From Poseidonia sp. (GTDB taxonomy: Archaea > Thermoplasmatota > Poseidoniia > Poseidoniales > Poseidoniaceae): 64,000 nucleotides of DNA. The stretch's first letter is position 1, and each line of letters opens with the position of its first letter. Made by a program: the position numbers and the translations under genes. This document shows, in pieces, positions 50,145 through 63,482 of this stretch. The DNA lies in the NCBI GenBank assembly GCA_965661285.1, contig CBFIDD010000003.1:128001-192000 (forward strand), given 5' to 3'. The notes beneath the pieces were generated by a model that worked only from the letters and a program-made list of their open reading frames with translations, did not search any database and was not told the DNA's origin.

Positions 50145-50179
50145 GGCCTGTCCCCGACCCTCCCAAGGGATGGGTGGTT

Positions 50180-51484
50180 TCAATCCTCTTCTTGTCCGAT
50201 TTGCAGGTGTGCTTCAGCAACCGAATGGATTGATTTTCGTTTCGTGATTTCTTCCTCGTAGCATTCGTGAAGCAATTCCCGGTTGGTCAAGGTCAACACC
50301 AGCGCACCAATTGCAGGAAGAGCAAGCCCCCCAAGCGCAAGTGCCCAGGACCCAAACACATCGAACACGGGGCCCACCAACAACGGCCCAACAATGGTGC
50401 CAGCAGCCCATGCAGCACCGAAGACGCCGAAGGCAAGCCCGGGGTTACCCTCTCCAAGGGCACGGTTTGTGGCGGTGTCGATCATCGGGAGCATCGGTAT
50501 TTGTGCGGCGGCGATGAAAAATTGGAACGAGCCCAGGAGCAGAATCATGCCCAAGATGGCCATCTGACCGGACAAGATGTAGCCGACCAAGCCGACGCCC
50601 AGAAGCGAGACGACGACGAAGGACCAACCGATGAGCATGTACCTCGTCGGGCCGTTTCGGTCAACCCATCGGCCCCAAACCACCGAGCCGAGCCCCTGCA
50701 TCAAGACCATGACCAAAAGAACGCCTCCAATGGCCGCCGAAGAGAGACCGAGGGCGTCATCAAGGAAGAGAGGAACACCCGCTTCAAGCGCCCCGGTGGC
50801 CAGGGTGGTGATGGCCAACAGCACACCGACTCGAAACAAAATCCGGTCGGTGAAGAACACGCGAATCGACACCGCAGAAGACGTGTGTTCACGCGGTCCA
50901 CCCACCACTTCCCTGGACGTCCACATCAACGGGCAGACCAACCCCGTCAGCAACGCCAACACGGTGAAGGCTGAAGCCTCGCCCCAGGTGAATAAAACGC
51001 CGCCAAGCACCGGTCCGAACAGCCCACCGATGGCTGCCATGCCGAGGAGTTTGCCCGCTTGCTCACCAAATTTCGTCGGCCACAGTTGTGAGGCTGCAGC
51101 TAAGCCTGCGGTCATGATGGTGGCGCCGGATGCACCGTGCACCATCCGAGCAAAAGCGAGCAACAGAAACGGTCGGCCCACCCATTCGTTGGTCGCCACC
51201 ACGTACAGGCCGCTTGACAAGGTCAGGAGCACCAAACTGACGAACACCGTACGGCCTGCGCCAAAGCGGTCGGTGATGCGACCGGTCAGTGGGCCAAAGA
51301 GGAGCAACGGGACCGCCCAAAGCGACACTAAAAGGGTGGCCTGGGTGGCGTTGAGGTCAAACTGTGTTTGCCAGGATGGTAAAATGGGGACGATGAACGC
51401 ATAACCGAGAAAGTTGACGAAAAAGGCCAGCAGAAGCGCCAGAAAGGCTCGCTGGAGTCGTCGCTCCACCTCATGGGCATTCAC
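50180..51484 (-). CDS. MFS transporter
   Basis: About 12 TM helices, motif A GRITDRFG and GRWVDRNG. Confidence 0.9.
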   Translation of the reverse strand: MNAHEVERRLQRAFLALLLAFFVNFLGYAFIVPILPSWQTQFDLNATQATLLVSLWAVPLLLFGPLTGRITDRFGAGRTVFVSLVLLTLSSGLYVVATNEWVGRPFLLLAFARMVHGASGATIMTAGLAAASQLWPTKFGEQAGKLLGMAAIGGLFGPVLGGVLFTWGEASAFTVLALLTGLVCPLMWTSREVVGGPREHTSSAVSIRVFFTDRILFRVGVLLAITTLATGALEAGVPLFLDDALGLSSAAIGGVLLVMVLMQGLGSVVWGRWVDRNGPTRYMLIGWSFVVVSLLGVGLVGYILSGQMAILGMILLLGSFQFFIAAAQIPMLPMIDTATNRALGEGNPGLAFGVFGAAWAAGTIVGPLLVGPVFDVFGSWALALGGLALPAIGALVLTLTNRELLHECYEEEITKRKSIHSVAEAHLQIGQEED

Positions 51485-52575
51485 TCTTCTTCCTCCGTTG
51501 CGGGAAGGGCATCAAGCATGTCCGCCGCAAGGGTGCTTGCATCCTCAACTTGGGTGAGCAAGGTCAAATCAGAAAGCGCTCCGGGGCGCTTCAACGCCTC
51601 CATCAAGTCCAAGAGAACCTCTGCGGTCAAGCGTGTGAGCGCCAGGGCCTCGGGGTCGATGCCCACCTGCTGGGTTTCTTCGAGCAGGGAGACGTAATCG
51701 GGTTCCTCGGAGAGAATACCCTCCATCTCCGCTTCCACTTGACGGGCAATGTCCTGTGCCTGACGTTCGAGAATGTCCTCCATCGAGGAGCGCGGGCCGG
51801 ATGCAAGGGTTGGTGTTGCCCCCTCACCGAGCGTGGTACCTTTTTTGAGGTCCTTGAAGGAAGGAACGTTGGTCGATGCCTGCTGTTGCGGGGCTTTATC
51901 GCCTTGTACGACCGGTTCAGGACCGGGGGGTGGCCCAGAGCCAACCAGCCGGTTGAGAGCCAAACGCACCATCGTCGTCATGACTTCAGCGGAGAGACCG
52001 CCCTCGTCCTCGTCGGGGTGGTCCTCGCCCATCTCTTCGCGTATGGAAGCGATGAACGTGTCATCGATGTTTCCACCCTCAACCAAGCGCTGGAGCATCG
52101 GAAGGGCCCACTGACTGTCGTTCATCGCCATGCCGACTTCAAAACGCTGACCGCCCAATCCCCCGCCGCCCGAGCCAGCGGAAACATCGGCTGGCGGCGG
52201 CACGAATTGCTTGGCAGCGTGTCGCCCGATTTGGCCGATGAGTTGGTTCATGTCAACCGGCTTTCCAATCACCTCTGCCACGCCAGCCAAAGCAGCTGAC
52301 GAAAGAAATTCCGGGGCGGTGGTGCGAGAGAGGATGACGGTTCGGGTTGCAGAACGAAAGCGCGGTTGGCCGGCCAGGGATTGGCATACGTCCATCACGC
52401 TTCCTTGCCCCCATTCGCCCTCCAACAAGAGAACATCGGGAAGGACAGCACCCGCCGTCGCTTCGGTTTGGGCAAGCGTGCTCAGCCGGGTCACTTCGTA
52501 CCCCTCACGCTCGAAGGTGTTGGCCAGAAGGTTGCGTCGACCTTCGTTTTCGTCGGCGATGATGATGCTTGGCGT
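51481..52575 (-). CDS. Atypical receiver (REC) domain protein, likely ACG start
   Basis: The frame stays open upstream of the GTG at 52494, giving PSIIIADENEGRRNLLANTFEREGYEV...PDVLLLEGEW...VIGKP; GGAGG lies 8 nt before ACG 52575. Confidence 0.7.
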   Translation of the reverse strand, partial: TPSIIIADENEGRRNLLANTFEREGYEVTRLSTLAQTEATAGAVLPDVLLLEGEWGQGSVMDVCQSLAGQPRFRSATRTVILSRTTAPEFLSSAALAGVAEVIGKPVDMNQLIGQIGRHAAKQFVPPPADVSAGSGGGGLGGQRFEVGMAMNDSQWALPMLQRLVEGGNIDDTFIASIREEMGEDHPDEDEGGLSAEVMTTMVRLALNRLVGSGPPPGPEPVVQGDKAPQQQASTNVPSFKDLKKGTTLGEGATPTLASGPRSSMEDILERQAQDIARQVEAEMEGILSEEPDYVSLLEETQQVGIDPEALALTRLTAEVLLDLMEALKRPGALSDLTLLTQVEDASTLAADMLDALPATEEEE

Positions 52576-52689
52576 CCTCGTCCCCTCCGTGGTGAAAGGA
52601 GGGACTCAGCGCCTTTGAATCTCACCCCGAGCGGGTCCACCATTGGCGGTGTTTTGGTCGACCAAGCGAGGGTGCGCGTGCGTGGGCGT

Positions 52690-53856
52690 TCACTCTACGT
52701 CGCTCGGCACTGCGGCCGCCCAACCCATGATGCCGCCGTCAAGGTTGTACAGGTGGTCGGCCTTCCAACCCGCTTGAATCAAGGTCATGGCCGCCAGTTG
52801 AGAGCGCATGCCGCTCTTGCAATGGATGAGAATATCGGTTTTTTTGGGAAGCCGCTCAAGAACGGACAACACGTCGGTGTGGGGCACGTGGACGTCACAG
52901 CTCTTGGCGCGTAACTCTGCATATTCTGCATCCGAACGAACATCAAGGATGAACGGCGCCCAACCGTTTTCTCGCCGGTCAAGGAAATCTGCAACGGAGA
53001 CATGGTGAAACATTACTTCGGCTGAGGGGGCCTCGGATTTTTGTTCTTGCGGCGCTCTTTCGACGGCTGTAGAGACCGTGCACCATGCTTCTTCGCTCAA
53101 CATGGCGGCTGCGTTGGAGAGGTCAACCACCGGCTCCCGGTCATTATCGGCGCTGAAATTGAGCGTGTCGAAGGCCATGGATTGTGCGTCATACAGCAGC
53201 AGTTTTCCGCTAAGGGAGACCGGCATATCGGTCAGGAGTTTGATGGCCTCGGTGGCCTGGAGCAGACCGATCACACCGGGAAGCACACCGAACACACCCG
53301 CCTCGGCGCAGGTCGGGACGGCTTCGGGTGGCGGAGGGTCGGGGAACAAATCTCGATAACACGGACCGCCGTTGTGGTTGAACAGCGAGACTTGGCCCTC
53401 GAAGCGAAACACGGAACCGTAGACCCACGGAAGACCGAGCAAAGAGCACGCATCGTCGATGAGGTAGCGGGTGGGAAGGTTATCGGTGCCGTCGATAACG
53501 AGGTCCCAACCCTCCATGATGTCCATGGCGTTGTTGGGATTGAGACGCTCGTGGAACACCTCAACGCTCACGTTCGGGTCCAGAGCGTGGAGGCGCGCCT
53601 TCGCAGAAGCCACCTTGGGTTGACCGACATCGGGCGTGGCGTGCAAGATTTGACGCTGAAGATTGCTCACATCAACGGTGTCGTTGTCCACCAACCCCAA
53701 ACGACCGACCCCTGCGGCGGCCAGATACAACGCTGCGGGGGAGCCCAGTCCACCCGCCCCGATGATCAGGACACTCGCTTGATTCAACTTCCGCTGGCCT
53801 TCAACCCCAACATTGGGCAGGCTGATATGACGAGCATGCCGTGTGACATCAACCAT
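52690..53856 (-). CDS. moeB: MoeB/ThiF adenylyltransferase with C-terminal rhodanese domain
   Basis: GAGGLGS, SNLQRQ, GTDN, PCYRDLFP, TCAEAGV; rhodanese HCKSGMRS. Confidence 0.92.
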   Translation of the reverse strand: MVDVTRHARHISLPNVGVEGQRKLNQASVLIIGAGGLGSPAALYLAAAGVGRLGLVDNDTVDVSNLQRQILHATPDVGQPKVASAKARLHALDPNVSVEVFHERLNPNNAMDIMEGWDLVIDGTDNLPTRYLIDDACSLLGLPWVYGSVFRFEGQVSLFNHNGGPCYRDLFPDPPPPEAVPTCAEAGVFGVLPGVIGLLQATEAIKLLTDMPVSLSGKLLLYDAQSMAFDTLNFSADNDREPVVDLSNAAAMLSEEAWCTVSTAVERAPQEQKSEAPSAEVMFHHVSVADFLDRRENGWAPFILDVRSDAEYAELRAKSCDVHVPHTDVLSVLERLPKKTDILIHCKSGMRSQLAAMTLIQAGWKADHLYNLDGGIMGWAAAVPSDVE

Positions 53857-53895
53857 GCACCGGCCAAACCGCCGGTCCTCATCAAGGAAACGGCT

Positions 53896-54825
53896 TCAAT
53901 GGACGTTCTCTTCAAGCCACTTTTCAACGTCCATGGCCGCAGAACACCCCATCCCAGCGGCGGTGATGGCCTGCTTGTAGCGCGTGTCAACCACGTCGCC
54001 CGCTGCAAAGACACCGGGAACCGAGGTCATCGTGTGCTCTTTGTGAAGGATGTAGCCGTTCTCATCGGTCTCCACCTGACCCCCGAGGAAATCGGTGATG
54101 GGTGTGTGTCCGATGGCGATGAAGGCACCGGTGGCTTCGATGGTTTCGGTGCTGCCGTCTTGCGTGTTTTCGAGCACGGCGCCGGTCAGGCCTTTGTCGT
54201 CGGACAGCCATTCCTTAATTTGGCGGAAGGTGCGAATCTCAATTTTCGGGTTGTTGGCCGCTCGCTCGTACATGATGGTCGAGGCTTTGAACACATCACG
54301 GCGGTGGATGAGCGTGACCTTGCTTGCAAATCGGGTCAGGAAGGTCGCTTCCTCACAAGCGGAATCACCGCCGCCGATGACCAGCACGTGTTCGTTGCGG
54401 AAGAACGCCCCGTCGCAGGTCGCACAGGTGGAAATGCCTCGTCCCTTTTGCTCGGCCTCACCGGGCGCATCAAGCCACAACGATTCAGCACCGGTGCAGA
54501 CGATGATGGAATGCGCGCGGAAGGTCTCGCCTTCGACCGTAACCTTGTACGGTCGCTCGCTGAGGTCCACTTCGTCGACGTTTTTGTCCTCAACATCCAA
54601 ACCAAAGCGCTCGGCTTGTTCGCGGAGTTGCATCATCATCTCGGGCCCGGCAATGCCTTCGGGGTAGCCGGGGAAATTTTCGATGTCGCTGGTGAGCATC
54701 AACTGGCCTCCCGACATGTAGCCGGCGAACATGAGCGGGTTGAGCATGGCTCGTCCAGCGTAGAGTCCAGCGGTGTAGCCTGCAGGTCCGGAACCGATGA
54801 TGATGACGTTTCGTACTTCGGACAT
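53896..54825 (-). CDS. trxB: Thioredoxin-disulfide reductase
   Basis: GSGPAG, IENFPG, CATCDG, GGGDSA, FAAGD, QAITAAG. Confidence 0.95.
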   Translation of the reverse strand: MSEVRNVIIIGSGPAGYTAGLYAGRAMLNPLMFAGYMSGGQLMLTSDIENFPGYPEGIAGPEMMMQLREQAERFGLDVEDKNVDEVDLSERPYKVTVEGETFRAHSIIVCTGAESLWLDAPGEAEQKGRGISTCATCDGAFFRNEHVLVIGGGDSACEEATFLTRFASKVTLIHRRDVFKASTIMYERAANNPKIEIRTFRQIKEWLSDDKGLTGAVLENTQDGSTETIEATGAFIAIGHTPITDFLGGQVETDENGYILHKEHTMTSVPGVFAAGDVVDTRYKQAITAAGMGCSAAMDVEKWLEENVH

Positions 54826-54928
54826 GTGACTCTCCAAGCATCGGTGAAGAGCGGTGGTGTTTGAAGATTCGCCCGAAAGCCCCTTGGAGAGCAAAAAGGT
54901 AGAGATACCCTGCGAGGATGCCCCCGTT

Positions 54929-55126
54929 ATGGTCAATCAACTCGCTGCGGCTGCCGGCATGGGCGTTTACGTGCCTCTGGTGCTCTGAGCCACCAAACTC
55001 CCGTACACGATGATGGTCAACCGCGGCATGGCGCACATTCGAGCCGTCGACGACAACCGAAAAATCGTCCACATGTTCGCCGGCGGTGTAGGCTCACTCG
55101 GCGTGCCCTTCGGTCCGCTCCTCTAG
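54929..55126 (+). pseudogene. Disrupted 5' fragment of a dolichol/phytol-kinase-like membrane protein gene
   Basis: MVNQLAAAAGMGVYVPLVL*ATKLPYTMMVNRGMAHIRAVDDNRKIVHMFAGGVGSLGVPFGPLL*; in-frame TGA at 54986 and an RKxxH motif. Confidence 0.6.
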
Positions 55127-55140
55127 CGGGAGCCCGAAGG
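55107..55140. terminator. GC-rich hairpin between convergent units
   Basis: CCTTCGG...CCGAAGG outer stem, CCGCT...AGCGG inner stem; no U-tract. Confidence 0.3.
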
Positions 55141-55143
55141 CGT

Positions 55144-55488
55144 TCACTGGCCGATGAGCTTGTAGTCGTCGCTGAGCGGCGTTGCACCGGTCTCGACATG
55201 GACGATCTTGCCGTCTTGGTAGCGGTAGAAGGCCAGCACGGCCTCAGAGTCCGAGCCGTTGGCAAAGTGTGCGATGGAGTGGGCGACGCCAACTTCATCG
55301 TTCTCGAACAAGATGCGGTGGGCTTCGCTGCGAACCATATCGGTGCCTGCGAAGGCCATGATGTCGCTCTTGGTCATGACGGCCCCGCCGACGTGGGGGT
55401 AAAACTTGCAGTCGTCGTGAATGACAGCGTCAAGCAATTCTTTGTCTCCGGATGTAAAGGCTTCTTCGTATTTGGCTAGGATGCTCAT
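55144..55488 (-). CDS. NTF2/SnoaL-like protein
   Basis: 114 aa, YEEAFTSGD...IHDD...DGKI pattern. Confidence 0.75.
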   Translation of the reverse strand: MSILAKYEEAFTSGDKELLDAVIHDDCKFYPHVGGAVMTKSDIMAFAGTDMVRSEAHRILFENDEVGVAHSIAHFANGSDSEAVLAFYRYQDGKIVHVETGATPLSDDYKLIGQ

Positions 55489-55589
55489 GGTTCGTGGCTA
55501 GGCCGGAACCACATAATGACTTCCTCTGTTGTCTATGGAGAACGGAGGTGAAGGGAAACCTTTGAATCCCGTTTCCCAAAGTTGATTTC

Positions 55590-56582
55590 ATGAGGGTGCA
55601 CTGCCTTGGTGGCGGCTTGGTCGGCTCTTTTGTGACCCGAAAACTGTACGAAGCAGGGTTTGAGGTCCACCTGTTCGACATTGAACCGCGCGAAACACCC
55701 GCCACCTTCCATTTGGGTGATGCTGCATCCGCCGACCACAGCGGTGCGGACATCATCGTCAACATGGTCCCCGGCGACATTGGCCACGCCGTCTTGCAAG
55801 CCCTCCAACCTCACGGCCATCGCATCGTTGACCTTTCGTTCAGCGAAACCACCCCCGACCGCCTGCCCGAAGGGGCCAGCACCGTCCTGTGGGACGTTGG
55901 CATCGCTCCTGGGCTCTCCAACATGCTCGTCGCGTTGGCTCATCGAGAACTCGGCGCCCTCGACAGCGTGAGCATCAAGGTGGGCGGCAACCCTTCCCGT
56001 CCCGACGATGCCTGGTCGTACATGGCACCCTTTTCACCGCACGACGTCATCGCCGAGTACACGCGCCCCGTACGGGTTGTTCGAGACGGCACCGTCGTCA
56101 CCCTGCCCGCCATGTCAGAACTTCACAGCATCGATGCCAACGGCAGAGCCATGGAAGCCTTCCTGACCGACGGGTTGCGCTCGCTCATCAATGTGCCAGC
56201 CAGCACCATGGGTGAATACACCGTCCGTTGGCCCGGACACATCCAACGCTACCAATCCACCGACCTCGGACCCGAAAATCTTGTCGAAGCCTGGCGTTTT
56301 GACCCCACGCGCCCCGAGTTTACCTGGATGGAGGTGCGGGTTGAAGGCGGCGGCAAGACCCGTGTCTGGACGGTAGAGGATAACGGAAAGGACGGGGATT
56401 CGAGCATGGCAAGGACGACGGGCCTGGTGACCTATGCCTGCGTGGTCGCTTGGAGCCAGCACGAACTGTTCACAGAGGGCATCCATCCTCCCGAGGACCT
56501 CCCCTCTGAGGTCATTCACGACGTGATTCAAACGCTTGAGGACGAAGGCGTACGTATCGAGCATCAAACGGGGCATGAGTGA
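55590..56582 (+). CDS. Saccharopine/lysine 6-dehydrogenase-family oxidoreductase
   Basis: GGGLVG, VDLSF, GIAPGLSN, VIAEYTRP, EAFLTDGLRSL, TVRWPGH, SSMARTTG. Confidence 0.88.
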   Translation: MRVHCLGGGLVGSFVTRKLYEAGFEVHLFDIEPRETPATFHLGDAASADHSGADIIVNMVPGDIGHAVLQALQPHGHRIVDLSFSETTPDRLPEGASTVLWDVGIAPGLSNMLVALAHRELGALDSVSIKVGGNPSRPDDAWSYMAPFSPHDVIAEYTRPVRVVRDGTVVTLPAMSELHSIDANGRAMEAFLTDGLRSLINVPASTMGEYTVRWPGHIQRYQSTDLGPENLVEAWRFDPTRPEFTWMEVRVEGGGKTRVWTVEDNGKDGDSSMARTTGLVTYACVVAWSQHELFTEGIHPPEDLPSEVIHDVIQTLEDEGVRIEHQTGHE

Positions 56583-56644
56583 AGGTCGGCGAGGGATGAT
56601 TTAGAAGCGGGAACAAATAAGAACTAAACCATTAACCCCGGCCC

Positions 56645-57187
56645 ATGAAGGGCATTGTTTTCCGAGAGTTCATGGAGATGGTTGAGTCCACGTTTGGCGA
56701 TGAAATGACGGAAAAATTGGTTCAAGACAACGACCTGGTAAGCGGCGGAGTCTACACCGCCGTTGGGACGTACGACCACCAAGAACTCGTGGCGATGGCC
56801 ATCACACTCTCAAAAGAGACCGACTTACCCGTGGAGGCTCTTGTCGAGGCGTTTGGAAACTATTTGTTCGGGCGTTTCTTGGAGTTGTTCCCTGTGTTCT
56901 TTGATCACAAAACCTCATTTGAATTCCTCGACACCATCCATGATGTGGTTCACGTTGAAGTTTTGAAGCTTTACCCCGAAGCAACCCTTCCCGATTTCGT
57001 CAGTGAAATCAAAGACGACGGAAGAACCCTGCACTTTGAGTATCACAGCCCGAGGCATTTCGCCGATTTAGCAGTTGGACTGATGAAAGGCGCGTTTGAC
57101 CACTGGAACGAAACGGTGGAGATGACACGGGAAGACAAGGTCGTTGATGGAAATCAAGTCACCTTGTTCATCTGCACGTTGGTCTGA
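56645..57187 (+). CDS. Stand-alone H-NOX (heme NO/O2-binding) protein
   Basis: MKGIVF start, YTAVGTYD, FG..LF, proximal His in VHVEVLKLYP, conserved Pro in LPDF, YxSxR as YHSPR, GLMKG. Confidence 0.93.
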   Translation: MKGIVFREFMEMVESTFGDEMTEKLVQDNDLVSGGVYTAVGTYDHQELVAMAITLSKETDLPVEALVEAFGNYLFGRFLELFPVFFDHKTSFEFLDTIHDVVHVEVLKLYPEATLPDFVSEIKDDGRTLHFEYHSPRHFADLAVGLMKGAFDHWNETVEMTREDKVVDGNQVTLFICTLV

Positions 57188-57202
57188 TGACGAGGACTCG
57201 CG

Positions 57203-57829
57203 ATGGATTTCAAAGAACTGGCAAAAATCGCCGCTGCAAGAAAAAAAGCATCAACCTCTACGCCCGAAGAGGAGATTCAACGCCTCAAGAAGACCGTTGA
57301 GCGGGAAAAAGCAGCACGGCGACAAGCTGAGGAAACCATTGAGGAGAGTTCGCGCCGTTTGTACCTGGCCAACCAAGAAGCCGCTGCATTGAACAAGGAA
57401 CTGGAATCAACCCTTCAAGACCTCAACGAGACACTGGGGGCCCTCACCAGTGCGAAAGCAAAACGAATTGCGACGTTCATCACATTGGTGCTGGCAACCT
57501 TTCTGTTCTTTCTCACCGAGTTTGCACTCGAGCCAATTCTTGAAGAAAAAATAGAGAGTAGTTTCTTCCTTATTCTCGCCAAGGGTATGATTTTTGCGAC
57601 GCTCATTCCTGTTGAGATCATTGGCTCACGTCTCGCAGAGCGAAATCTTACCGAGTCAGGCAAAATCAACGAATCGATTTACAGGGATTTACTCCTCGCT
57701 GCCTATGAGGATGGCATCATCACAGAAATGGAACGCACATTGCTCAATTCATCTGCTCGACAACTCGGTATCAACAAAACACAAGCAAAACGGATTGAAC
57801 AAGAACTTGCTGATGGGCAAGCGCAATGA
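57203..57829 (+). CDS. H-NOX partner: coiled coil, two TM helices and TerB-like C-terminus
   Basis: REKAARRQAEETIEESSRRLYLANQE; two TM helices; YRDLLLAAYEDGIITEMERTLLNSSARQLGI. Confidence 0.75.
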   Translation: MDFKELAKIAAARKKASTSTPEEEIQRLKKTVEREKAARRQAEETIEESSRRLYLANQEAAALNKELESTLQDLNETLGALTSAKAKRIATFITLVLATFLFFLTEFALEPILEEKIESSFFLILAKGMIFATLIPVEIIGSRLAERNLTESGKINESIYRDLLLAAYEDGIITEMERTLLNSSARQLGINKTQAKRIEQELADGQAQ

Positions 57830-58092
57830 TGGGACGAAGGCGACCACATCCACCTGACTTCAAAGCGGGAGGCTCGTGCCGTGGTCACAGAAGGCAACTC
57901 TTGAGGCATTAATCCGAAGAGGACGGAAAAATCTTCATGATAATTCCGTGAGAGAGAACAGCCATTCCTGCCTCGGCATCGGACGACATTCTGTCCAAGT
58001 CCAGGCTGCTCAGGCAACGCATCGAGGCGCGAAACAACCCTCCACCACCGCATGCCGCACCTCGCAAGACAGCATCCCCCCATCGGGACGAA

Positions 58093-58356
58093 ATGGTGGT
58101 GGTGGTTGCTGAGAAACCAAAGCGAAGCCCATTCCTAACCCTCGCTTATGCGACGGTCGCGTTGATCGTGTTCAATCTCCCGTATTTTCTGTATCAAGCC
58201 AACGCTGAACCAGACGTCAACTATCCGTTTGCTGGATTTGATGAAGCCATCATCACGCTGATTTGCTTCGTCCCCCTGATGATCGTCTCGGTGGTTTTTT
58301 GGTGGTCTGCAGTCCTTCATATCATCATTCAACTGGTCAGCCGTGCACGCCGTTGA
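58093..58356 (+). CDS. Small two-TM membrane protein (frame open upstream to 57952)
   Basis: Two hydrophobic helices; possible lost or non-canonical start at ATT 57964. Confidence 0.55.
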   Translation: MVVVVAEKPKRSPFLTLAYATVALIVFNLPYFLYQANAEPDVNYPFAGFDEAIITLICFVPLMIVSVVFWWSAVLHIIIQLVSRARR

Positions 58357-58614
58357 CTCTGATGTCTACGTGTTCAACGGTAGGGTTGTGAAGGGCCCAC
58401 TGAGAGCCTTTGTAAACGGGTAAATTGTACATATGGGTGTTTCGTTCTTGTGGGCGAGCACCTTGAGTCGGAGGAATTCAAGCGCTGCATGAAGAGAGAG
58501 AAGCAGTGGGTTGAGGGAAATACTGTGGTGGGTTTTCCTTGAGATGCGATGAATGTGATAAATCTCCCGTGCGTCGGAAGAACAGATATAAACAAGAAAT
58601 GAGAAGTACGTCTC

Positions 58615-58878
58615 ATGTTCTCAAGCTTAATTCTTATTTTTGAGGAATATCCGGCGCTTTTGACCATCCTTTCTGGGATGGTGATTCTCGGAGCGATCGG
58701 GTTCGTTCTGATGATGGCCTTTAACATCAAATCCTTCCTGACTTACCGAAAACGGAAAGCCGATGACAAAAATGAAGAAGTGGAAAAGGAGCATTCAACA
58801 CTCTTTTGGGCCGTTGATGGGTTTTTCACATTCGCCTTATCTTTGGACTTCCTGTCGATTTTTCTCATTTTAATTTAG
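58615..58878 (+). CDS. Small AT-rich membrane protein
   Basis: TM-charged loop-hydrophobic tail; ATATAAA ends 23 nt before the ATG. Confidence 0.6.
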   Translation: MFSSLILIFEEYPALLTILSGMVILGAIGFVLMMAFNIKSFLTYRKRKADDKNEEVEKEHSTLFWAVDGFFTFALSLDFLSIFLILI

Positions 58879-58919
58879 AATACGACCCACTGCAAACCGT
58901 TGTGAACGTCATATCTGTG

Positions 58920-59000
58920 CACAAGGGCAACCCTCGTAGCCGTATACATCTACAACCGTACCCTAGAGTACACCCCCATACACAAGGGCCTCCCTCGTGG
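58920..59000. repeat. Two ~20-nt imperfect direct repeats, each a hairpin
   Basis: CACAAGGGCAACCCTCGTAG at 58920 and CACAAGGGCCTCCCTCGTGG at 58981; period 61 nt. Confidence 0.55.
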
Positions 59001-59038
59001 AGGCTGAGTTTCGATTCGGGTTCAGGGATGATGCACCG

Positions 59039-61219
59039 TCATGCGCTTCTTCGTCGCAGAACGACCAATGCACCAGCTGCAGCCACCATGGAGAGGTTGA
59101 CGCCAAAGCCAGGAAGTGCGCCGTCATTGTCTCCATCTGCGTCGTTGGACGTCTCATTTCCGCTCGTCTCGTCCGTGGTGTTGCTGGGTGTGCTTTCCAC
59201 GTAGGCACCGTCCACGCACGTCCCTGTACCTACGACGAGGTCGTTGCGTGTTTGCGAGAGAACGGTGGCGTTGGCCGCATCGATGTTGAAATCGTCCTGT
59301 TGATAGAGCGAAGTCTCGAGAACGTAGCATCCCGGCTGGAGAGAAAAGGTCCGGTTGTACTGTTCTCCGCTTGAGGTGATGTCGTTCCATAACCACACGC
59401 CTCGGTTGTCGCCGTTGTTCGTCGTGCTCACAAGAACGATCGCCGTGTAGGACTGACCAGATTGAAGTTCACTGACCTCTGCTTGATATTCGAACGTCCA
59501 CGGAGAAGTGCTGTTTGAGGACATGGTGGTTGCCTCGATGCTGTTGACGGTGATGTTTTCTCTGCTGACGATGGGGGCGTCGGGGTCCTGCCACAGCCAA
59601 ACCATGTTGTTCTCGTGTTTCCCGGTGTCCTCACCAACGAGCACACGCCCGTCGTCGAGCACCAGCAGGTTGTCGGGTCCAGCAAGGTTGTTGATGTCGC
59701 ATTCGTACCGGTCCGATGAGGTGTAAGGCCCACCGATGATGGCCGGCTCAATCCTGTCGACGTTCCACGGTGAGGTCATCGTCATTCGGTAAACGATGCC
59801 GCAGTAATTCTGAGTAAGCGCAATGTCGCCTTGACCGTCGGTCATGCCGTTGGCGATGTTTGACATGGCCAGGTAAAGGGTATCGGGAACCTTGGGATTG
59901 AAGGCCACGCCCTCCATCTTGTTCCATTCGTCGCTCGCCCCCAAGGCAGCCGCGGCTTTTCGAGATTCGAGGAACGCCACGCGGTCGTCTACAGCGGTGC
60001 CAATCACGCCGTCGCCGTTGAGGTCGTCGTTGCGTTTGGCTTCGGCCCAATCGTTGATTTCCTCGTCCGAGATGTAGGAGGATTCGCCGTTGACAAAGTC
60101 CGCTGTGGTGATGCCGTCGTACTCGTCAATCCAGGCTTGGATTTCTCGTGAGGATGAAGAAGCGAGTTCGATCCAATCAACATCAAATCCAGTGGTGGCG
60201 GAATCGGTGCCCCCGTCCTGTTCCACATGCGCAGCGTACAGCGTTCCTGCGCTCAAATCGCCGGCCGTTTCAGCAACGAACTTGAACAGAACCGTTTCGT
60301 AGCCGTCGTCGGTCAGATAGACGGTTTTCTCATCGGGCATGACGTTCGCATTTTCATGCGAGAAACGACCCATGGTGTAGTGGCGAGTCAAGTCCGGCTC
60401 ACCGGATGCAGCGTTTTCCAGTTCAATGATGTAGCCGTAGTCGTAAGGATTTGGATAATATCCGAGGTAGTCGGCGAGGCGGGTCTGGTCGGTGTGATAT
60501 CGGAAGGTCTCGTCGTTCCATCGCTCGGTGTTGTCGAAATACAGTTCCTCGGAGAACAGCGGCGAGCCCCACGGGCTGATGCTGCCAAAGCACAACACCC
60601 ACCCGCCGTTGATCGCACTCAAGTTGAGCATGCTGCTCTTCAAGACGTCCCACTGCGAAGCCTTTGCATTCCATTGAATCTCCATTTGACTGATGCCCGC
60701 TGGTCGGTCCTCCCAAGCGGTGTAGAGGAAACCATGCAAGCCGTCGTTGCTGGCGGGCACGTAGGCGTTGTAATCGGGCTTCTGGCTCAGTTTGAGTTGG
60801 GCGCCGTCGTCCGCTGCGTAAATGCCCCCTGCAAGGCCGCCTTCGGTCAGAACATCCCCCGCCTGCAGCAGCACTTGATACTCACCGTATGACGTCCGGA
60901 TGCCGTGCCAGACATCCTCGGGACTGCTCGATGCGTCCAAAGCGGGAACCGTTTCGGGAAGCGCATGCCAATCAACGCCGTGAACAACCCCCACCGTGGC
61001 CTTGTAGCGGTCGGTGTCGGGATGCATGGCGTTCACGAAGAAATGGCCGTTGCCGTCAACATGCATGCCCGTGACTTCAGCCTCGGGCGGTAACATCATG
61101 ATGCGGGTGATTTCATCGCCAAAGGCCGTCTCATCGCTTTGGGCGACGGCCACAGGAAAGGTCGTGAGCGCCAGCAGCATCCCAACGGAGCACAGCAGCA
61201 TCAACCCTTTCCGGCTCAT
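59039..61219 (-). CDS. phoX: PhoX-family (DUF839) alkaline phosphatase with PGF-CTERM anchor
   Basis: LCFGSISPWGSPLFSEE, YGYIIE, MGRFSHEN, YLTDD, KMEG, PDNL..GED; tail LPGF-hydrophobic-RRR. Confidence 0.85.
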   Translation of the reverse strand: MSRKGLMLLCSVGMLLALTTFPVAVAQSDETAFGDEITRIMMLPPEAEVTGMHVDGNGHFFVNAMHPDTDRYKATVGVVHGVDWHALPETVPALDASSSPEDVWHGIRTSYGEYQVLLQAGDVLTEGGLAGGIYAADDGAQLKLSQKPDYNAYVPASNDGLHGFLYTAWEDRPAGISQMEIQWNAKASQWDVLKSSMLNLSAINGGWVLCFGSISPWGSPLFSEELYFDNTERWNDETFRYHTDQTRLADYLGYYPNPYDYGYIIELENAASGEPDLTRHYTMGRFSHENANVMPDEKTVYLTDDGYETVLFKFVAETAGDLSAGTLYAAHVEQDGGTDSATTGFDVDWIELASSSSREIQAWIDEYDGITTADFVNGESSYISDEEINDWAEAKRNDDLNGDGVIGTAVDDRVAFLESRKAAAALGASDEWNKMEGVAFNPKVPDTLYLAMSNIANGMTDGQGDIALTQNYCGIVYRMTMTSPWNVDRIEPAIIGGPYTSSDRYECDINNLAGPDNLLVLDDGRVLVGEDTGKHENNMVWLWQDPDAPIVSRENITVNSIEATTMSSNSTSPWTFEYQAEVSELQSGQSYTAIVLVSTTNNGDNRGVWLWNDITSSGEQYNRTFSLQPGCYVLETSLYQQDDFNIDAANATVLSQTRNDLVVGTGTCVDGAYVESTPSNTTDETSGNETSNDADGDNDGALPGFGVNLSMVAAAGALVVLRRRSA

Positions 61220-61275
61220 GGTTTGGTCTCAAGGACGAGCGGGAAAAACGTTCCTGCATGCGTGATGTCAGCGGT

Positions 61276-61665
61276 TCACGCGTCGAGGACCGCTCGAATC
61301 GCTGCACGAGCATGCGGTTCAAGCCGAGGTTCGATGTGTTTGGGCTTTGCACCCGGGCCAATAATGCCCAGACCAATCGGCTTGTCGTGCTTGAGTTGAA
61401 GTTCAAGAATGGTTTTAATGACGGCTTGGCCCATCGCCAATCCATGTTGCGTCTCGCCCTTTTCGATGATGCCCAGGCACGCTGCAGCGTCGTGGTCGGC
61501 GAGCAAACGGTCCAGTGCTAACGGGACTTCCATCGAACCTGGCACCCACACGACATCACCGATGCTCAACCCGAGGTGCTCAGCCTCCTCGCTTGCGAAG
61601 GCCAACATCCGGTCAACCTCGTCCTTGTGAAAGGAACCGCAAACCAGTCCGACGCGCTTGGTCAT
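61276..61665 (-). CDS. ribH: 6,7-dimethyl-8-ribityllumazine synthase
   Basis: VPGSMEVP, LGIIEKGETQH, KPIGLGI. Confidence 0.92.
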   Translation of the reverse strand: MTKRVGLVCGSFHKDEVDRMLAFASEEAEHLGLSIGDVVWVPGSMEVPLALDRLLADHDAAACLGIIEKGETQHGLAMGQAVIKTILELQLKHDKPIGLGIIGPGAKPKHIEPRLEPHARAAIRAVLDA

Positions 61666-62279
61666 GCCCTCGCCTCCTTGTTCTCCTCTTTCATCATTCG
61701 CTCAACCGTGGCGACGATGGTTTGGGTCATGGCGTCGATTTCGATGTTGATGCGATCGCCTTCGCTCGCCGAGCCAAAGGTGGTGAGGCTCAGTGTTTCG
61801 GGGATGAGGTGAATGTTGAATCGAGTCTCGTTGACCTCACCGATGGTGAGCGAGGCCCCATTCAGTCCGATGTAGCCCTTTTCATGGATGAATTTCATCA
61901 TGAACGCCGGCGCTTCAATGGTCATGTCAACGCCTTCTCCGACCTCTTGCCGGCGTGTGATTTCACCCAGGCCCATGATGTGGCCAGAGAGGAGGTGGCC
62001 ACCCAATTCATCGCCCATCTTGAGCGAGCGTTCCACGTTGACCTCGTCGCCTTCGTTCAGCGACGAAAGATTGGTTCGTTCAAGACTTTCTTGAATCACG
62101 TCAAAGGCCACGTGCTCGCCCTCGATGACGGTGGCGGTCAGACAAACGCCGTTGATGGCAACGCTGGCGCCCCGTTGAAGGCCGGAGATGTTTGGAAGCG
62201 AGATGTGGAAGGTCCAGACGGCGTTTTCCTTTTCTATAGAAGAGATGGTTCCTCGCCCTTGAACGATGCCAGTGAACAT
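61662..62279 (-). CDS. ribE: Riboflavin synthase, bacterial-type alpha chain
   Basis: MFTGIV, SVAINGVCLT, VNVER..GGHLLSGH, KGYIGLNGASLT. Confidence 0.95.
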   Translation of the reverse strand: MFTGIVQGRGTISSIEKENAVWTFHISLPNISGLQRGASVAINGVCLTATVIEGEHVAFDVIQESLERTNLSSLNEGDEVNVERSLKMGDELGGHLLSGHIMGLGEITRRQEVGEGVDMTIEAPAFMMKFIHEKGYIGLNGASLTIGEVNETRFNIHLIPETLSLTTFGSASEGDRINIEIDAMTQTIVATVERMMKEENKEARA

Positions 62280-62281
62280 CT

Positions 62282-62722
62282 TCAGGCCCCCTGCTTTTCG
62301 GCACGTTCGAGAATACGTGCGATGATTTTTCTCGTCCCGTCGAGGTCGTCGCTCAAGCCTTCCACACGCACCACCTGAATATCGCCGTGACCCCGTTCTT
62401 GGAGGGCTTTCCGGATGTTTTCCTCGGCGTGTTCTTGGTCGTAGCCAAGAGCGATGACATGGGGGTTGATGGAGGGGAGGATGTCGAAGATGGGCACTTC
62501 GGGAGGATTACCGATAACGACGACATCCACCGGTTTCAGACCTTCGACCATGCGTCGGCGGAGATCTTGGTTGGTCACCGGTTCGTGTTTTCGCTTGCGC
62601 ACCGTGTCGTCGTGGGCAACCACGACCGTGAGATGGTCGCCCAAAGCTTTGGCCTGTTCCAAGTAATGGAGGTGGCCGGCATGAAGGAGGTCAAACACAC
62701 CAACAGCAAGAATGCGCTTCAT
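62282..62722 (-). CDS. ribL: Archaeal FAD synthase (cytidylyltransferase-like)
   Basis: GVFDLLHAGH, LKPVD, LGYDQ; within the rib operon. Start ATG 62722. Confidence 0.88.
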   Translation of the reverse strand: MKRILAVGVFDLLHAGHLHYLEQAKALGDHLTVVVAHDDTVRKRKHEPVTNQDLRRRMVEGLKPVDVVVIGNPPEVPIFDILPSINPHVIALGYDQEHAEENIRKALQERGHGDIQVVRVEGLSDDLDGTRKIIARILERAEKQGA

Positions 62723-62753
62723 AGGACCACCAATTGCGGGTTGGGCTGTTGCT

Positions 62754-63482
62754 TCATGAGGATGACGGTGAAGACGCGACGCCAAGAGCAGCGACGACAT
62801 CTGCGCCCTCGAGGAACGGAATTTCCCGTGCTTCTGCCCACGCACGGGCGTGGTCGACCGAAAGCGCATGGTCGCCGTCTGGCTGAAGCATTTCAGCACC
62901 GATGACCACCGGAGCGGTGCCTGAGAGGCGAGCAAGTCCGACGGCGAGTTCAGTATGACCTTGACGCACCTCCAATCCACCCTTGGCTTCCCTGCATACC
63001 GGAATGTGGCCCGGCGTTCGGAATTCTGCACCAAGTCGCTCCATAGCGGGCTGGCCAACGACGCTTTCGTCCAAGCAAGCGGTTGCTAACTCGGCGAATC
63101 GACGGGTCGTCAGTGCACGGTCATGGTCGGTGATGCCGGTGTAGGTGTCGCGATGGTTGATGGAGAGGGTGAAGGCCGAGCGGGCGTCGTAGCGAAGGTC
63201 GTTGGTGACAAGGTGGTTCAACACCGGATTTCGCTCGACGGCATCGGGGGTCGTGTGGAGGTCTTGGAGGAAGGGAAGGCCGAAGCACTCGCCAACCTCG
63301 TCGCCGATGGCGAGGAAGAGCAAACCTCCGCAGTCTTGTCGCAATTGGCGCATCGTCGCAGGCTCAGCCAAGGCGGCTGGAAAGAGGAGGTCGGTTTCCC
63401 CCTCTCGCTTTTCCGAGTCAAACAAGCATACTGGATGCCCCTTTTGGAACGCTTCAACAGCTCGTTGCACATGGGCCTCCAT
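62754..63482 (-). CDS. ribB: 3,4-dihydroxy-2-butanone-4-phosphate synthase (archaeal type)
   Basis: FDSEKREGETD, YDARSAF, TGITDHDRA, PGHI, RQGHTE, EML. Confidence 0.93.
   Translation of the reverse strand: MEAHVQRAVEAFQKGHPVCLFDSEKREGETDLLFPAALAEPATMRQLRQDCGGLLFLAIGDEVGECFGLPFLQDLHTTPDAVERNPVLNHLVTNDLRYDARSAFTLSINHRDTYTGITDHDRALTTRRFAELATACLDESVVGQPAMERLGAEFRTPGHIPVCREAKGGLEVRQGHTELAVGLARLSGTAPVVIGAEMLQPDGDHALSVDHARAWAEAREIPFLEGADVVAALGVASSPSSS

What the first reader, a model, noticed from the sequence alone, without database searches (positions are those of the whole stretch)
56645..57829. Archaeal H-NOX gas sensor coupled to a kinase-less membrane effector with a TerB-like tail
Seen: an intact stand-alone H-NOX (proximal His in VHVEV, conserved Pro, YHSPR). 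The residue five positions after the YxSxR Arg, which is the distal Tyr of O2-binding H-NOX, is Leu here. A 208-aa gene starts 16 nt downstream with REKAARRQAEETIEESSRRLYLANQE, then two TM helices, then YRDLLLAAYEDGIITEMERTLL..ARQLGI. Established: bacterial stand-alone H-NOX genes sit in operons with histidine kinases or c-di-GMP enzymes, and those lacking the distal Tyr are NO-selective. From memory, those kinases begin with a similar RERxARxxAExxLExKSRxLY coiled coil; a DGxIxxxE helical motif is TerB-like. Inference: this is an NO-sensing module in a planktonic archaeon in which the H-NOX docking helix has been grafted onto a non-enzymatic membrane output. I know of no description of this architecture. 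It is my best candidate for a new system in the window.
Basis: partly seen in the sequence, partly recalled or inferred. Interest (0 to 1): 0.82.

Follow-up and report, generated by a model that had tools for sequence, protein, structure and literature searches.

The report
Archaeal NO sensor with membrane-hairpin partner
A marine planktonic archaeon carries a bacterial-type haem gas sensor next to a small membrane protein that keeps the sensor-associated helix of the usual bacterial kinase partner but replaces the kinase with an uncharacterised membrane hairpin, which points to a way of turning a gas signal straight into a membrane response.

Summary
Window 56645-57187 encodes an intact stand-alone H-NOX (Pfam HNOB, E 4.7e-38) with His103, Pro116, Y133-S135-R137 and Leu142 at the distal-Tyr position. 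A 208-aa gene follows after a 15-nt spacer.

The genome is a Poseidoniaceae (Marine Group II) MAG. The pair is a conserved two-gene cassette: 22 of 23 H-NOX genes found in 301 Poseidoniales genomes have a partner-family gene directly downstream, and the flanks differ between genomes.

The partner has three modules:
- **N-terminal helix (residues ~24-60).** It is homologous to the N-terminus of the histidine kinases encoded beside related bacterial H-NOX genes (14 of 30 loci). In 5 of 5 whole bacterial genomes the only strong match lies beside H-NOX.
- **Coiled-coil plus two-TM hairpin.** It is homologous (hhalign 99.3%) to an unnamed module. That module ends REC, REC-PAS and TPR proteins, and takes the place of kinase, GGDEF or cyclase domains behind another shared N-terminal helix region in bacteria.
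- **Tail.** It is one TerB-type repeat, supported only transitively.

The genome shows no HisKA or GGDEF. The best reading is an NO-responsive H-NOX that docks on the helix and controls a membrane effector. What that effector does is inferred, not shown. I rate it a new variant of H-NOX signalling, with an undescribed output module.

The parts
56645..57187 (+). Stand-alone H-NOX (haem NO/O2-binding) gene, 180 aa
   Evidence: Pfam HNOB E 4.7e-38, profile positions 1-162 of 163. The best PDB sequence matches are bacterial stand-alone H-NOX: 6ocv/6wqe at 9.5e-34 and 6bde at 1.1e-32.
56951..56953 (+). Codon of His103, the predicted proximal haem ligand (VHVEV)
   Evidence: It aligns with the His of 'ihvev'/'hvev' in the PDB H-NOX chains and is kept in 18 of 19 Poseidoniales H-NOX. 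The His-to-Pro116 spacing of 13 matches the Tt H-NOX His102/Pro115 spacing, which I recall rather than tested.
57041..57055 (+). Y133-H-S135-P-R137, the YxSxR haem-propionate motif
   Evidence: Y133, S135 and R137 are invariant in 19 of 19 sequences.
57068..57070 (+). Codon of Leu142, at the position of the distal Tyr of O2-binding H-NOX (Arg+5)
   Evidence: Leu in 18 of 19 and Val in 1 of 19, never Tyr. The closest PDB homologues also have a non-Tyr residue here. A passage in PMC8738867 states that a distal Tyr is required for O2 binding.
57188..57202 (+). 15-nt intergenic spacer with GAGGA (57192-57196)
   Evidence: Read directly from the sequence. It suggests one transcript and coupled translation, which is an inference.
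57203..57829 (+). Partner gene, 208 aa: stalk helix, coiled coil, 2TM hairpin, TerB-type tail
   Evidence: ORF. 147 relatives. AF2 model has mean pLDDT 79.4.
57272..57382 (+). Residues 24-60: H-NOX-associated stalk (docking) helix, RLxxxxEREkAARxxAExxIEExSRxLYLAN
   Evidence: R34, A38, R39, A42, E43 and E47 are invariant across 3 archaeal partners and 13 bacterial H-NOX-adjacent kinase N-termini. Specificity was shown.
57353..57637 (+). Residues 51-145: coiled-coil plus two-TM hairpin output module, with conserved T/S-E106, E110-P111, E114, K127 and P136-x-E138
   Evidence: hhalign against 25 bacterial stand-alone module proteins gives probability 99.3%, E 2.1e-20 over 95 columns. In the AF2 model the helix at residues 21-116 is continuous from the stalk into TM1.
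57653..57823 (+). Residues 151-207: cytoplasmic tail of three short helices, one TerB-type repeat unit (YxxLLxAAYxDGIITxxERxLL...LGI)
   Evidence: Direct hits are weak: TerB 0.26, DUF533 0.19, DjlA 0.22. The profile matches up to 8 tandem copies in proteins that Pfam calls TerB.

Best explanation
This is a two-gene, kinase-free gas-sensing cassette of Poseidoniaceae (Marine Group II archaea).

**Shown:**
- Gene 1 is an intact H-NOX of the class that lacks a distal Tyr.
- Gene 2 begins with the same conserved helix that begins the histidine kinases encoded beside the related bacterial H-NOX subfamily.
- In the model, that helix runs without a break through a coiled coil into the first of two membrane helices.
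- The coiled-coil/2TM hairpin is homologous to a module that ends bacterial REC, REC-PAS and TPR proteins. The same module stands where HisKA/HATPase, GGDEF or cyclase domains stand behind one shared N-terminal region, in proteins encoded beside SiaC.
- The tail is a single TerB-type repeat.
- No HisKA or GGDEF domain was found in the genome.

**Inferred mechanism:**
1. Cytoplasmic haem-bound H-NOX sits on the partner's N-terminal stalk helix. This resembles SiaC binding the stalk of SiaD, and H-NOX binding HnoK.
2. NO binding changes the H-NOX surface.
3. That change alters the packing or oligomeric state of the long stalk/coiled coil.
4. The change is passed directly into the membrane hairpin, which is itself the output.

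My preferred guess for the output (about 0.3) is a change in cation permeability through an oligomer of hairpins. The basis is the strictly conserved acidic loop (E106, E110, E114) and the intramembrane K127 and E138. The TerB-type tail would be a cytoplasmic ligand- or partner-binding accessory.

The cassette was probably assembled after transfer of a bacterial H-NOX plus the 5' end of its kinase gene into a host that lacks the downstream phosphorelay or c-di-GMP machinery.
For: **H-NOX identity and ligand-pocket residues:**

**Host:** titles.

**Pair conservation:** 21 of 22 genome loci with a near-full-length partner have H-NOX immediately upstream, and the 22nd starts at a contig end. Counting from the H-NOX side, 22 of 23 H-NOX genes in 20 of 301 Poseidoniales genomes have a partner-family gene directly downstream on the same strand. 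None of the 6 window flank genes I tested is shared with other loci.

**Stalk homology and specificity:**
- 14 of 30 bacterial H-NOX loci carry the motif at the N-terminus of the downstream gene, at E 3e-11 to 9e-6.
- These 14 are exactly the loci whose H-NOX is 30.6-49.7% identical to the window's. None of the 16 loci with more distant H-NOX has the motif at E<1e-3.
- The 10 downstream genes scanned carry PAS domains, most with HisKA and/or HATPase_c in the stretch held.
- Genome-wide, there is one hit at E<=1e-9 in each of 5 genomes, always beside H-NOX.
- Metagenomic kinases P0182 and P0197 start with the same motif.
- An orphan partner paralogue with no H-NOX beside it has a degenerate motif (L081).

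**Complex prediction (weak support):** score 0.58, best of 3 controls 0.01. The mark was reached by 58 of 80 solved complexes and 2 of 110 mismatched pairs. At 0.60 or under it was reached by only 7 of those 80, and by both mismatches that passed. The runs agree in at least 96% of contacts and partner pLDDT is at least 84.

**Continuous helix 21-116:**

**Output module:**
- hhalign 99.3%.
- It lies C-terminal to REC-PAS (P0152, P0186, P0188), REC (P0265, P0253) and TPR (P0170, P0174, P0183, P0247, P0260) proteins.
- Stand-alone forms lie beside SiaC plus DUF6272 genes in 2 of 3 loci. Their N-terminal region recurs on HK, GGDEF and cyclase proteins.
- 7 of 25 stand-alone forms weakly match SiaD.
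- SiaC binds SiaD stalks (PMC8457831, abstract).

**Cis version:** a paralogue with a GAF-like N-domain, long helix, 2TM and tail.

**Host lacks the usual outputs:** no HisKA or GGDEF match in a 93%-complete genome.

**Selection:** dN/dS 0.028 and 0.043.

**Signs of acquisition:** GC 0.486 against 0.59 in the flanks, and H-NOX in only one of the three families sampled in the order (19 of 149, against 0 of 149 and 0 of 2).
Against: - Nothing here shows haem binding, NO response or physical docking. The complex prediction is only a weak pass.
- No RNA data were available.
- No family, fold or motif match says what the hairpin does. There is no Pfam or NCBIfam family for it, and there were 0 PDB fold matches at E<=0.001.
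- The pore idea rests only on conserved charged residues.
- TerB membership fails Pfam's own threshold.
- The system looks dispensable and patchy. It is present in 20 of 301 genomes. One H-NOX has no partner beside it (L104), one partner paralogue has no H-NOX beside it (L081), and one partner copy is split over two frames (L035/L101).
Confidence: 0.55

Rival explanations
1. The sensor and docking are as above, but the hairpin has no activity of its own. It binds and regulates another integral membrane protein, for example the PR-like rhodopsin or a transporter, much as two-TM transducers bind sensory rhodopsins.
For: - The GAF-bearing paralogue lies directly upstream of a PR-like rhodopsin in 5 of 5 genomes checked.
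- That rhodopsin has Thr where green proteorhodopsin has its donor Glu (PR numbering recalled).
- In L025 and L029 the H-NOX pair lies beside that rhodopsin.
- One bacterial stand-alone module gene is followed by a sodium:solute symporter (L082).
Against: - The H-NOX pair has no conserved membrane-protein neighbour. In the window's genome the rhodopsin is about 86 kb away.
- The same polar hairpin residues are conserved from Bacteroidota to archaea, whatever the neighbouring genes are. That fits an intrinsic activity better than many different partners.
Confidence: 0.25
2. The partner is only a membrane tether or scaffold. It places H-NOX at the membrane, for instance for local NO buffering or haem handling, and has no signalling output.
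For: - No enzymatic or DNA-binding domain is present.
- The fold search found nothing.
Against: - In REC-only proteins (P0265, P0253) the coiled-coil/2TM module is the only thing behind the receiver.
- Behind one shared N-terminal region, the module stands where kinase, GGDEF and cyclase domains stand. That is the position of an output.
- A plain anchor would not keep E106, P111, E114, K127, P136 and E138 invariant.
Confidence: 0.1
3. The H-NOX here responds to something other than NO: O2, CO, or a haem-independent redox signal as described for Vibrio cholerae H-NOX.
For: - Ligand specificity was not measured.
- These archaea live in oxic surface water.
- Haem-free redox sensing through a Cys-ligated zinc site is described for Vc H-NOX (PMC7108781, passages).
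Against: - There is no distal Tyr in any of the 19 sequences, and a distal Tyr is required for O2 binding (PMC8738867, passage).
- The protein has a single Cys (Cys177), so a multi-Cys zinc site is not possible.
Confidence: 0.08
4. The cassette is a decaying remnant of a transferred bacterial H-NOX/kinase operon and has no function.
For: - Distribution is patchy.
- GC is low.
- One copy is frameshifted and there are orphan copies.
Against: - The ORFs are intact across at least 5 genera.
- dN/dS is about 0.03-0.04.
- The partner is not a truncated kinase. It is a full protein ending in a different conserved module.
Confidence: 0.02

Closest known systems
Bacterial H-NOX / HnoK (H-NOX-associated histidine kinase) operons
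   Same: - A stand-alone H-NOX without a distal Tyr is followed directly by its partner gene.
- The partner starts with the same conserved helix (R34, A38, R39, A42, E43, E47).
- The archaeal H-NOX is 31-50% identical to the bacterial H-NOX of these operons.
   Different: - The partner has no PAS, HisKA or HATPase_c.
- Its output is a coiled-coil/2TM hairpin plus a TerB-type repeat.
- The host is an archaeon in which no HisKA or GGDEF was found.
SiaC-SiaD partner-switch control of a diguanylate cyclase (Pseudomonas aeruginosa; PMC8457831, abstract read)
   Same: - The logic is the same: a small soluble protein binds conserved motifs on the N-terminal stalk helices of an effector and controls it through its oligomeric state.
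- Bacterial relatives of the hairpin module are encoded beside SiaC genes and weakly match SiaD.
   Different: - The sensor here is H-NOX, not SiaC.
- The stalk motif is different.
- The output is a membrane hairpin, not a GGDEF domain.
TerB (PF05099) / DUF533 / DjlA N-terminal domain
   Same: - The tail carries the xDGxIxxxE helix-turn-helix unit.
- The partner profile finds tandem copies of this unit in proteins that Pfam scores as TerB (7 of 12 sampled).
   Different: - Only one unit is present, matching profile positions 83-117 of 118.
- Direct scores are below the cut-off.
- It is not a complete TerB domain.
Sensory rhodopsin / two-TM transducer (Htr) pairs of haloarchaea (recalled, not tested)
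   Same: A two-TM protein with long cytoplasmic helices is encoded directly upstream of a rhodopsin that lacks the carboxylate donor. This applies to the paralogue, not to the window gene.
   Different: There is no HAMP or MCP signalling domain, and no sequence relation was shown. The comparison is by analogy only.

Membership tests
H-NOX (Pfam HNOB, PF07700) | Full-length HNOB domain above the curated cut-off | tested here: met
   131.1 bits against a cut-off of 25.5, profile positions 1-162 of 163.
H-NOX (Pfam HNOB, PF07700) | Proximal His, conserved Pro 13 residues later, and the YxSxR motif | tested here: met
   His103, Pro116 and Y133/S135/R137 are present. P116, Y133, S135 and R137 are invariant and His103 is kept in 18 of 19. 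They align with the same residues in solved H-NOX chains.
H-NOX (Pfam HNOB, PF07700) | Binds haem b and a diatomic gas | not testable with these tools
   This needs purified protein and spectra.
NO-selective H-NOX class | No Tyr at the distal position (Arg of YxSxR plus 5) | tested here: met
   Leu142 here; Leu in 18 and Val in 1 of 19. The rule comes from a passage in PMC8738867. The Tt H-NOX numbering is recalled.
H-NOX-associated histidine kinase (HnoK type) | Encoded directly beside H-NOX on the same strand | tested here: met
   15-nt spacer. 22 of 23 H-NOX genes in the order have a partner-family gene downstream.
H-NOX-associated histidine kinase (HnoK type) | N-terminal conserved helix shared by kinases next to H-NOX | tested here: met
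H-NOX-associated histidine kinase (HnoK type) | HisKA and HATPase_c catalytic core | tested here: not met
   No such hit at E<=1. The partner is therefore not a kinase and is not filed as one.
H-NOX-associated histidine kinase (HnoK type) | Physical, ligand-dependent binding of H-NOX | tested here: inconclusive
   Complex prediction gave weak support: score 0.58, best control 0.01. The mark was reached by 58 of 80 solved complexes and 2 of 110 mismatched pairs; at 0.60 or under, by only 7 of those 80 and by both mismatches that passed.
TerB (PF05099) | Pfam TerB score above the cut-off over the whole domain | tested here: not met
   12.0 bits against 24.4, covering profile positions 83-117 only. 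Among 16 family members, TerB appears at E<=1 in 2 and DUF533 in 3.
TerB (PF05099) | Repeat unit homologous to the units that make up TerB domains | tested here: met
   The partner profile hits 2-8 tandem stretches in long proteins. 7 of 12 of those scanned are TerB above the cut-off.
Coiled-coil/2TM hairpin output module (unnamed; not in Pfam or NCBIfam) | Profile-profile homology over the coiled coil, TM1, acidic loop and TM2, with the SE...EP..E / K / P.E signature | tested here: met
   hhalign probability 99.3%, E 2.1e-20, 95 columns, 32% identity. No curated family covers it.
Coiled-coil/2TM hairpin output module (unnamed; not in Pfam or NCBIfam) | Sits in the output position of signalling proteins | tested here: met
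   It lies C-terminal to REC, REC-PAS and TPR proteins. It alternates with HisKA/HATPase, GGDEF and cyclase domains behind one shared N-terminal region.

The most novel reading that the evidence does not exclude
The coiled-coil/two-TM hairpin is a previously unrecognised class of signalling output domain, shared by Bacteroidota and Marine Group II archaea. It acts directly in the membrane, most simply as a gated cation path. Different sensors would then be wired to membrane permeability with no kinase, second messenger or transcription factor: H-NOX in trans, GAF in cis beside a rhodopsin, and REC, PAS, TPR or SiaC-type switches in bacteria. On this reading the window holds an archaeal NO-gated membrane effector, and a sister light-linked system lies elsewhere in the same genome.
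Probability: 0.25. Interest if true: 0.9.

Novelty: new variant of a known kind. Interest (0 to 1): 0.76.

Why it matters
- **New host domain for the literature I could search.** The H-NOX papers I read describe only bacterial and animal systems, with kinase, c-di-GMP or chemotaxis outputs (passages in PMC9500659, PMC7108781 and PMC8738867). I found no paper that holds both 'H-NOX' and 'Poseidoniales', or both 'H-NOX' and 'TerB'.
- **Ecology.** A conserved H-NOX cassette in Marine Group II, among the most abundant planktonic archaea, suggests that these uncultured organisms may sense NO. NO is a phytoplankton stress and bloom-decline signal (recalled, not tested).
- **A docking determinant.** The work isolates a short, specific helix that travels with one H-NOX subfamily across kinases and this membrane protein. 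That gives a concrete candidate docking site to mutate.
- **An undescribed output module.** The hairpin module occupies the output slot of several kinds of signalling protein and has no curated family. Learning what it does would fill a gap in signal-transduction censuses.

Tried and rejected
- **Fold search of the partner model against PDB:** 25 matches at E<=10 and none at E<=0.001. It was not informative.
- **Profile of the partner against PDB sequences:** only tropomyosin (29.9 bits, coiled-coil bias) and Tic110 at 0.017 on the tail. I rejected these as evidence.
- **MCU- or CorA-like channel idea** (coiled coil, TM, acidic loop, TM): no Pfam or PDB sequence hit supports it. I keep it only as an analogy from memory.
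- **ESM Atlas:** the protein's own archaeal cluster scored 0.96. Next was a 183-aa Bacteroidota cluster auto-named 'Holin of 3TMs' at 0.81, below the level the tool treats as evidence. Pfam did not confirm a holin family for 25 such proteins.
- **Expression:** The look-up of sequencing runs listed no RNA holder. Five runs of unstated kind (listed '?') from two studies hold 93-95% of the sampled words.
- **Mobile-element signs:** no tRNA in 50000-64000 and no meaningful flanking repeats. No relative was found in viral contigs (33 pattern matches, 0 confirmed).
- **Conserved third gene:** none of the 6 window flank genes I tested recurs beside the pair in the 23 related loci searched, L014-L036. 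The 6 were the thioredoxin-reductase-like gene (named from its sequence, not scanned), SnoaL, the saccharopine-dehydrogenase-like gene, two small TM ORFs, and the 726-aa secreted protein.
- **dN/dS:** dS was saturated (returned -1) in 7 of 12 comparisons. Only the five with a finite dS are usable.
- **Row left out of the script HMM:** one row of A1 (P0071), whose N-terminus diverges as if frameshifted, was left out of the HMM.
- **Overlapping locus sets:** L003-L012 (genome search) and L014-L035 (search for related loci) largely repeat the same contigs, with identical identities. I counted them once.
- **Literature:** searches listed no paper joining H-NOX with Marine Group II terms, but their ranking makes them weak tests. 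Searches are the strict ones. Supplementary files were not consulted.
- **Not held in the library:** Guo et al. 2018 on the H-NOX/HK interface, Plate & Marletta 2013, and Iyer et al. 2003. What is known about the kinase-side interface is therefore not checked here.
Full report
**1. What is there**

The H-NOX gene is at 56645-57187 (180 aa) and the 208-aa partner gene is at 57203-57829. They are separated by 15 nt that contain GAGGA 6 nt before the ATG.

The first protein is a complete HNOB domain: E 4.7e-38, profile positions 1-162 of 163. Its best solved relatives are bacterial stand-alone H-NOX proteins, 6ocv/6wqe at 9.5e-34 and 6bde at 1.1e-32. His103 (VHVEV), Pro116 and Y133-x-S135-x-R137 are present, and the residue five after the Arg is Leu142. 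In 19 Poseidoniales H-NOX sequences, P116, Y133, S135 and R137 are invariant. His103 is kept in 18. Position 142 is Leu in 18 and Val in 1, never Tyr. A distal Tyr is required for O2 binding (PMC8738867, passage), so by sequence this belongs to the O2-excluding, NO-type class. The protein has a single Cys, so the multi-Cys zinc redox site described for Vibrio cholerae H-NOX (PMC7108781, passages) cannot exist here.

**2. Host and conservation**

The window is contig 3, 128001-192000, of a 1.98-Mb genome that is 93% complete with 0.08% contamination. Related loci carry Poseidoniales, Poseidoniaceae or Poseidonia titles.

The partner has 147 relatives at E<=1e-3 among 700 candidates, down to about 53% identity among the 120 listed. 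Among 22 genome loci with a near-full-length partner, 21 have H-NOX immediately upstream, and the 22nd begins at a contig end. The loci largely repeat these contigs.

Counting from the other side, HNOB was found in 20 of 301 Poseidoniales genomes. That is 19 of 149 in the window's family, 0 of 149 in the other large family and 0 of 2 in a third. Of the 23 H-NOX genes in those genomes, 22 have a partner-family gene directly downstream. Three of the 22 are of a long form. One of those was read as a 419-aa ORF that starts at the H-NOX stop, with a repeat-rich N-terminal extension; the other two I infer from the same spacing. One H-NOX is an orphan (L104). One partner copy is split over two frames (L035/L101).

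None of the window's flanking genes I tested recurs beside the pair elsewhere. The pair has GC 0.486 against 0.59 upstream. For the closest unsaturated comparison, dN/dS is 0.028 for H-NOX and 0.043 for the partner. This is a selected, mobile two-gene cassette. It is not a one-off truncation or an assembly chimera: five runs from two studies hold 93-95% of the sampled words of the stretch.

**3. The partner is three modules**

A profile search of 1.84 billion representatives gave 490 hits at E<=1e-3. They fall into three groups by the region they match.

(i) *N-terminal helix.* Two cytoplasmic kinases, P0182 and P0197, match profile positions 18-90 with their very first residues. P0182 has HisKA and HATPase_c, and P0197 has HATPase_c. 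Both show the same RLER.vEREkAAR.eAE.llEEksR.LYLA motif.

Among 401 genomes of a bacterial phylum, 29 have HNOB, and I obtained 30 loci. The centre genome of that phylum sample holds L039, which is titled Bacteroidetes. An HMM of partner residues 20-88 hits the N-terminus of the ORF directly downstream of H-NOX in 14 of the 30 loci, at E 3e-11 to 9e-6. The 10 ORFs scanned carry PAS domains, most with HisKA and/or HATPase_c in the stretch held. The 14 are exactly the loci whose H-NOX is 30.6-49.7% identical to the window's. None of the other 16 has the motif at E<1e-3; the best of them scores 0.21.

Searched against five whole bacterial genomes of 4-7 Mb, the helix profile finds one hit at E<=1e-9 in each, always beside H-NOX. 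The next best hit is 0.065. R34, A38, R39, A42, E43 and E47 are invariant between archaeal partners and bacterial kinases. An orphan partner paralogue with no H-NOX beside it has a degenerate motif. The helix is therefore a specific companion of one H-NOX subfamily. Docking is the obvious reading, but it is an inference.

The single complex prediction (H-NOX alignment, haem, partner 1-92) gave weak support. The score was 0.58 and the best of 3 controls 0.01. The mark was reached by 58 of 80 solved complexes and 2 of 110 mismatched pairs, but at 0.60 or under by only 7 of those 80 and by both mismatches that passed. The runs agree in at least 96% of contacts, and partner pLDDT is at least 84.

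(ii) *Coiled-coil/2TM hairpin.* AF2 (mean pLDDT 79.4) models residues 21-116 as one unbroken helix running from the stalk into TM1. TM2 is at 120-148. Both flanks are basic and the loop is acidic, so both ends should face the cytoplasm, where H-NOX is (positive-inside rule; inference).

The region 51-145 is homologous to about 180-aa bacterial proteins: hhalign 99.3%, E 2.1e-20, 95 columns. The same module ends REC-PAS (P0152, P0186, P0188), REC-only (P0265, P0253) and TPR proteins (P0170, P0174, P0183, P0247, P0260). In 2 of 3 bacterial genome loci the stand-alone form lies beside SiaC (PF09345) and DUF6272 genes. Its own N-terminal 80 residues recur in front of HisKA/HATPase (L086, L091), GGDEF (L095) and a nucleotide cyclase (L085). 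Seven of 25 stand-alone forms weakly match SiaD.

SiaC is known to bind conserved motifs on the stalk helices of the cyclase SiaD and to control its oligomeric state (PMC8457831, abstract). So the hairpin sits where catalytic outputs sit, behind interchangeable stalks. No Pfam or NCBIfam model covers it.

(iii) *Tail.* Direct hits are weak: TerB 0.26, DUF533 0.19, DjlA 0.22. Among 16 family members, TerB appears at E<=1 in 2 and DUF533 in 3. However, the profile matches 2-8 tandem stretches in long proteins, and 7 of 12 of those scanned are Pfam TerB above the cut-off. The tail is one TerB-type repeat unit, not a TerB domain.

**4. A cis-sensor sister in the same genome**

About 86 kb upstream on the same contig, outside the window, a 336-aa paralogue has a GAF-like N-domain. 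Its fold search gave 164 PDB matches at E<=0.001, and nearly all of the top-listed ones are GAF domains. A long helix, the hairpin and the tail follow. It lies directly upstream of a proteorhodopsin-like gene in 5 of 5 genomes checked. That rhodopsin keeps the retinal Lys but has Thr where green proteorhodopsin has its donor Glu (numbering recalled). In one genome this pair is the divergent neighbour of the H-NOX pair (L025). The module family is thus repeatedly tied to sensors.

**5. Why the kinase is gone**

The genome has no HisKA and no GGDEF match. It has three REC-like matches, and three HATPase_c matches in open frames of 660-700 aa. These are probably not sensor kinases, but I did not check that. 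A transferred H-NOX/kinase operon would have had nothing to talk to.

**6. Mechanism and rivals**

Three things are shown: the sensor class, the shared stalk, and the output-slot module. The inferred chain is as follows. H-NOX sits on the stalk. NO changes its surface. In bacteria, HDX work places the kinase interface on helices alphaA-alphaC and alphaF (PMC7108781, passage). The continuous helix then carries the change into the hairpin.

What the hairpin does is open. I favour an intrinsic membrane activity, namely cation permeability of an oligomer. The reason is that E106, P111, E114, K127, P136 and E138 are invariant in the 16 archaeal partners, and E106, K127 and P136 are also invariant in the 25 bacterial proteins, whatever the neighbouring genes are. 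I put this at about 0.3. Regulation of another membrane protein, such as the rhodopsin, is the main rival.

**7. Novelty**

The papers I read describe kinase, c-di-GMP or chemotaxis partners in bacteria (PMC9500659 and PMC8738867, passages). No paper in the library holds both 'H-NOX' and 'Poseidoniales', or both 'H-NOX' and 'TerB'. I file this as a new variant of H-NOX signalling. Its output module appears to be undescribed.

As a result, earlier scan notes, public names, and the context of the metagenomic proteins could not be checked.

Noticed in passing
L043:1583-3621 (G000 contig 3, 98083-100121; outside the window): A 336-aa paralogue (GAF-like domain, long helix, 2TM hairpin, TerB-type tail) lies 6 nt upstream of a 340-aa proteorhodopsin-like gene. 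That rhodopsin has Thr at the position of green PR's donor Glu. The pair is kept in 5 of 5 genomes checked. A second rhodopsin (L048:1468-2325) has Lys at that position, read by eye. This may be a light-sensing system.
   Followed up: partly
L082:502-2013 and L083:334-1980 (bacterial genomes G513, G529): Operons of DUF6272, SiaC (PF09345) and a roughly 180-aa coiled-coil/2TM hairpin protein. The hairpin protein's N-terminal 80 residues recur on HK, GGDEF and cyclase proteins (L086, L091, L095, L085). This suggests SiaC-type switches also drive the hairpin module.
   Followed up: partly
L033:1-486, L104:1365-1907: A second H-NOX type in Poseidoniaceae is 47-51% identical to the window's. It has 'FHQLEV' in place of 'VVHVEV', so the His is shifted by one position. 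It occurs once with a 308-aa partner and once as an orphan. Whether it binds haem is unclear.
   Followed up: no
L096:871-2130 (-): A long-form partner of 419 aa starts at the H-NOX stop. It carries three copies of a PSLxDLFGKAS-like motif, which is single in the window protein (MDFKELAKIAAARKKAS, residues 1-17). The role of this motif is unknown.
   Followed up: no
window 56645-59038: A low-GC island (about 0.49 against 0.57-0.61 around it) extends beyond the pair. It covers two 87-aa predicted membrane ORFs (58093-58356 and 58615-58878) with no Pfam family over the cut-off (one has no hit, one a single hit at E 0.7), and no counterpart beside the pair in other genomes.
   Followed up: partly
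window 59039-61219 (-): A 726-aa secreted protein has a signal peptide and a C-terminal PGF motif followed by a TM helix and RRR. This resembles an archaeosortase PGF-CTERM sorting signal (recalled, not tested).
   Followed up: no
window 51481-52566 (-): One of only three receiver-domain (PF00072) matches in the genome lies about 4 kb upstream of the H-NOX gene (35.7 bits, open frame of 374 aa). No HisKA was found in the genome, so its phosphodonor is unclear.
   Followed up: no
L035 / L101: The partner match is split over two reading frames (residues 1-124 and 132-200). This is either a frameshifted copy or an assembly error in that MAG.
   Followed up: no
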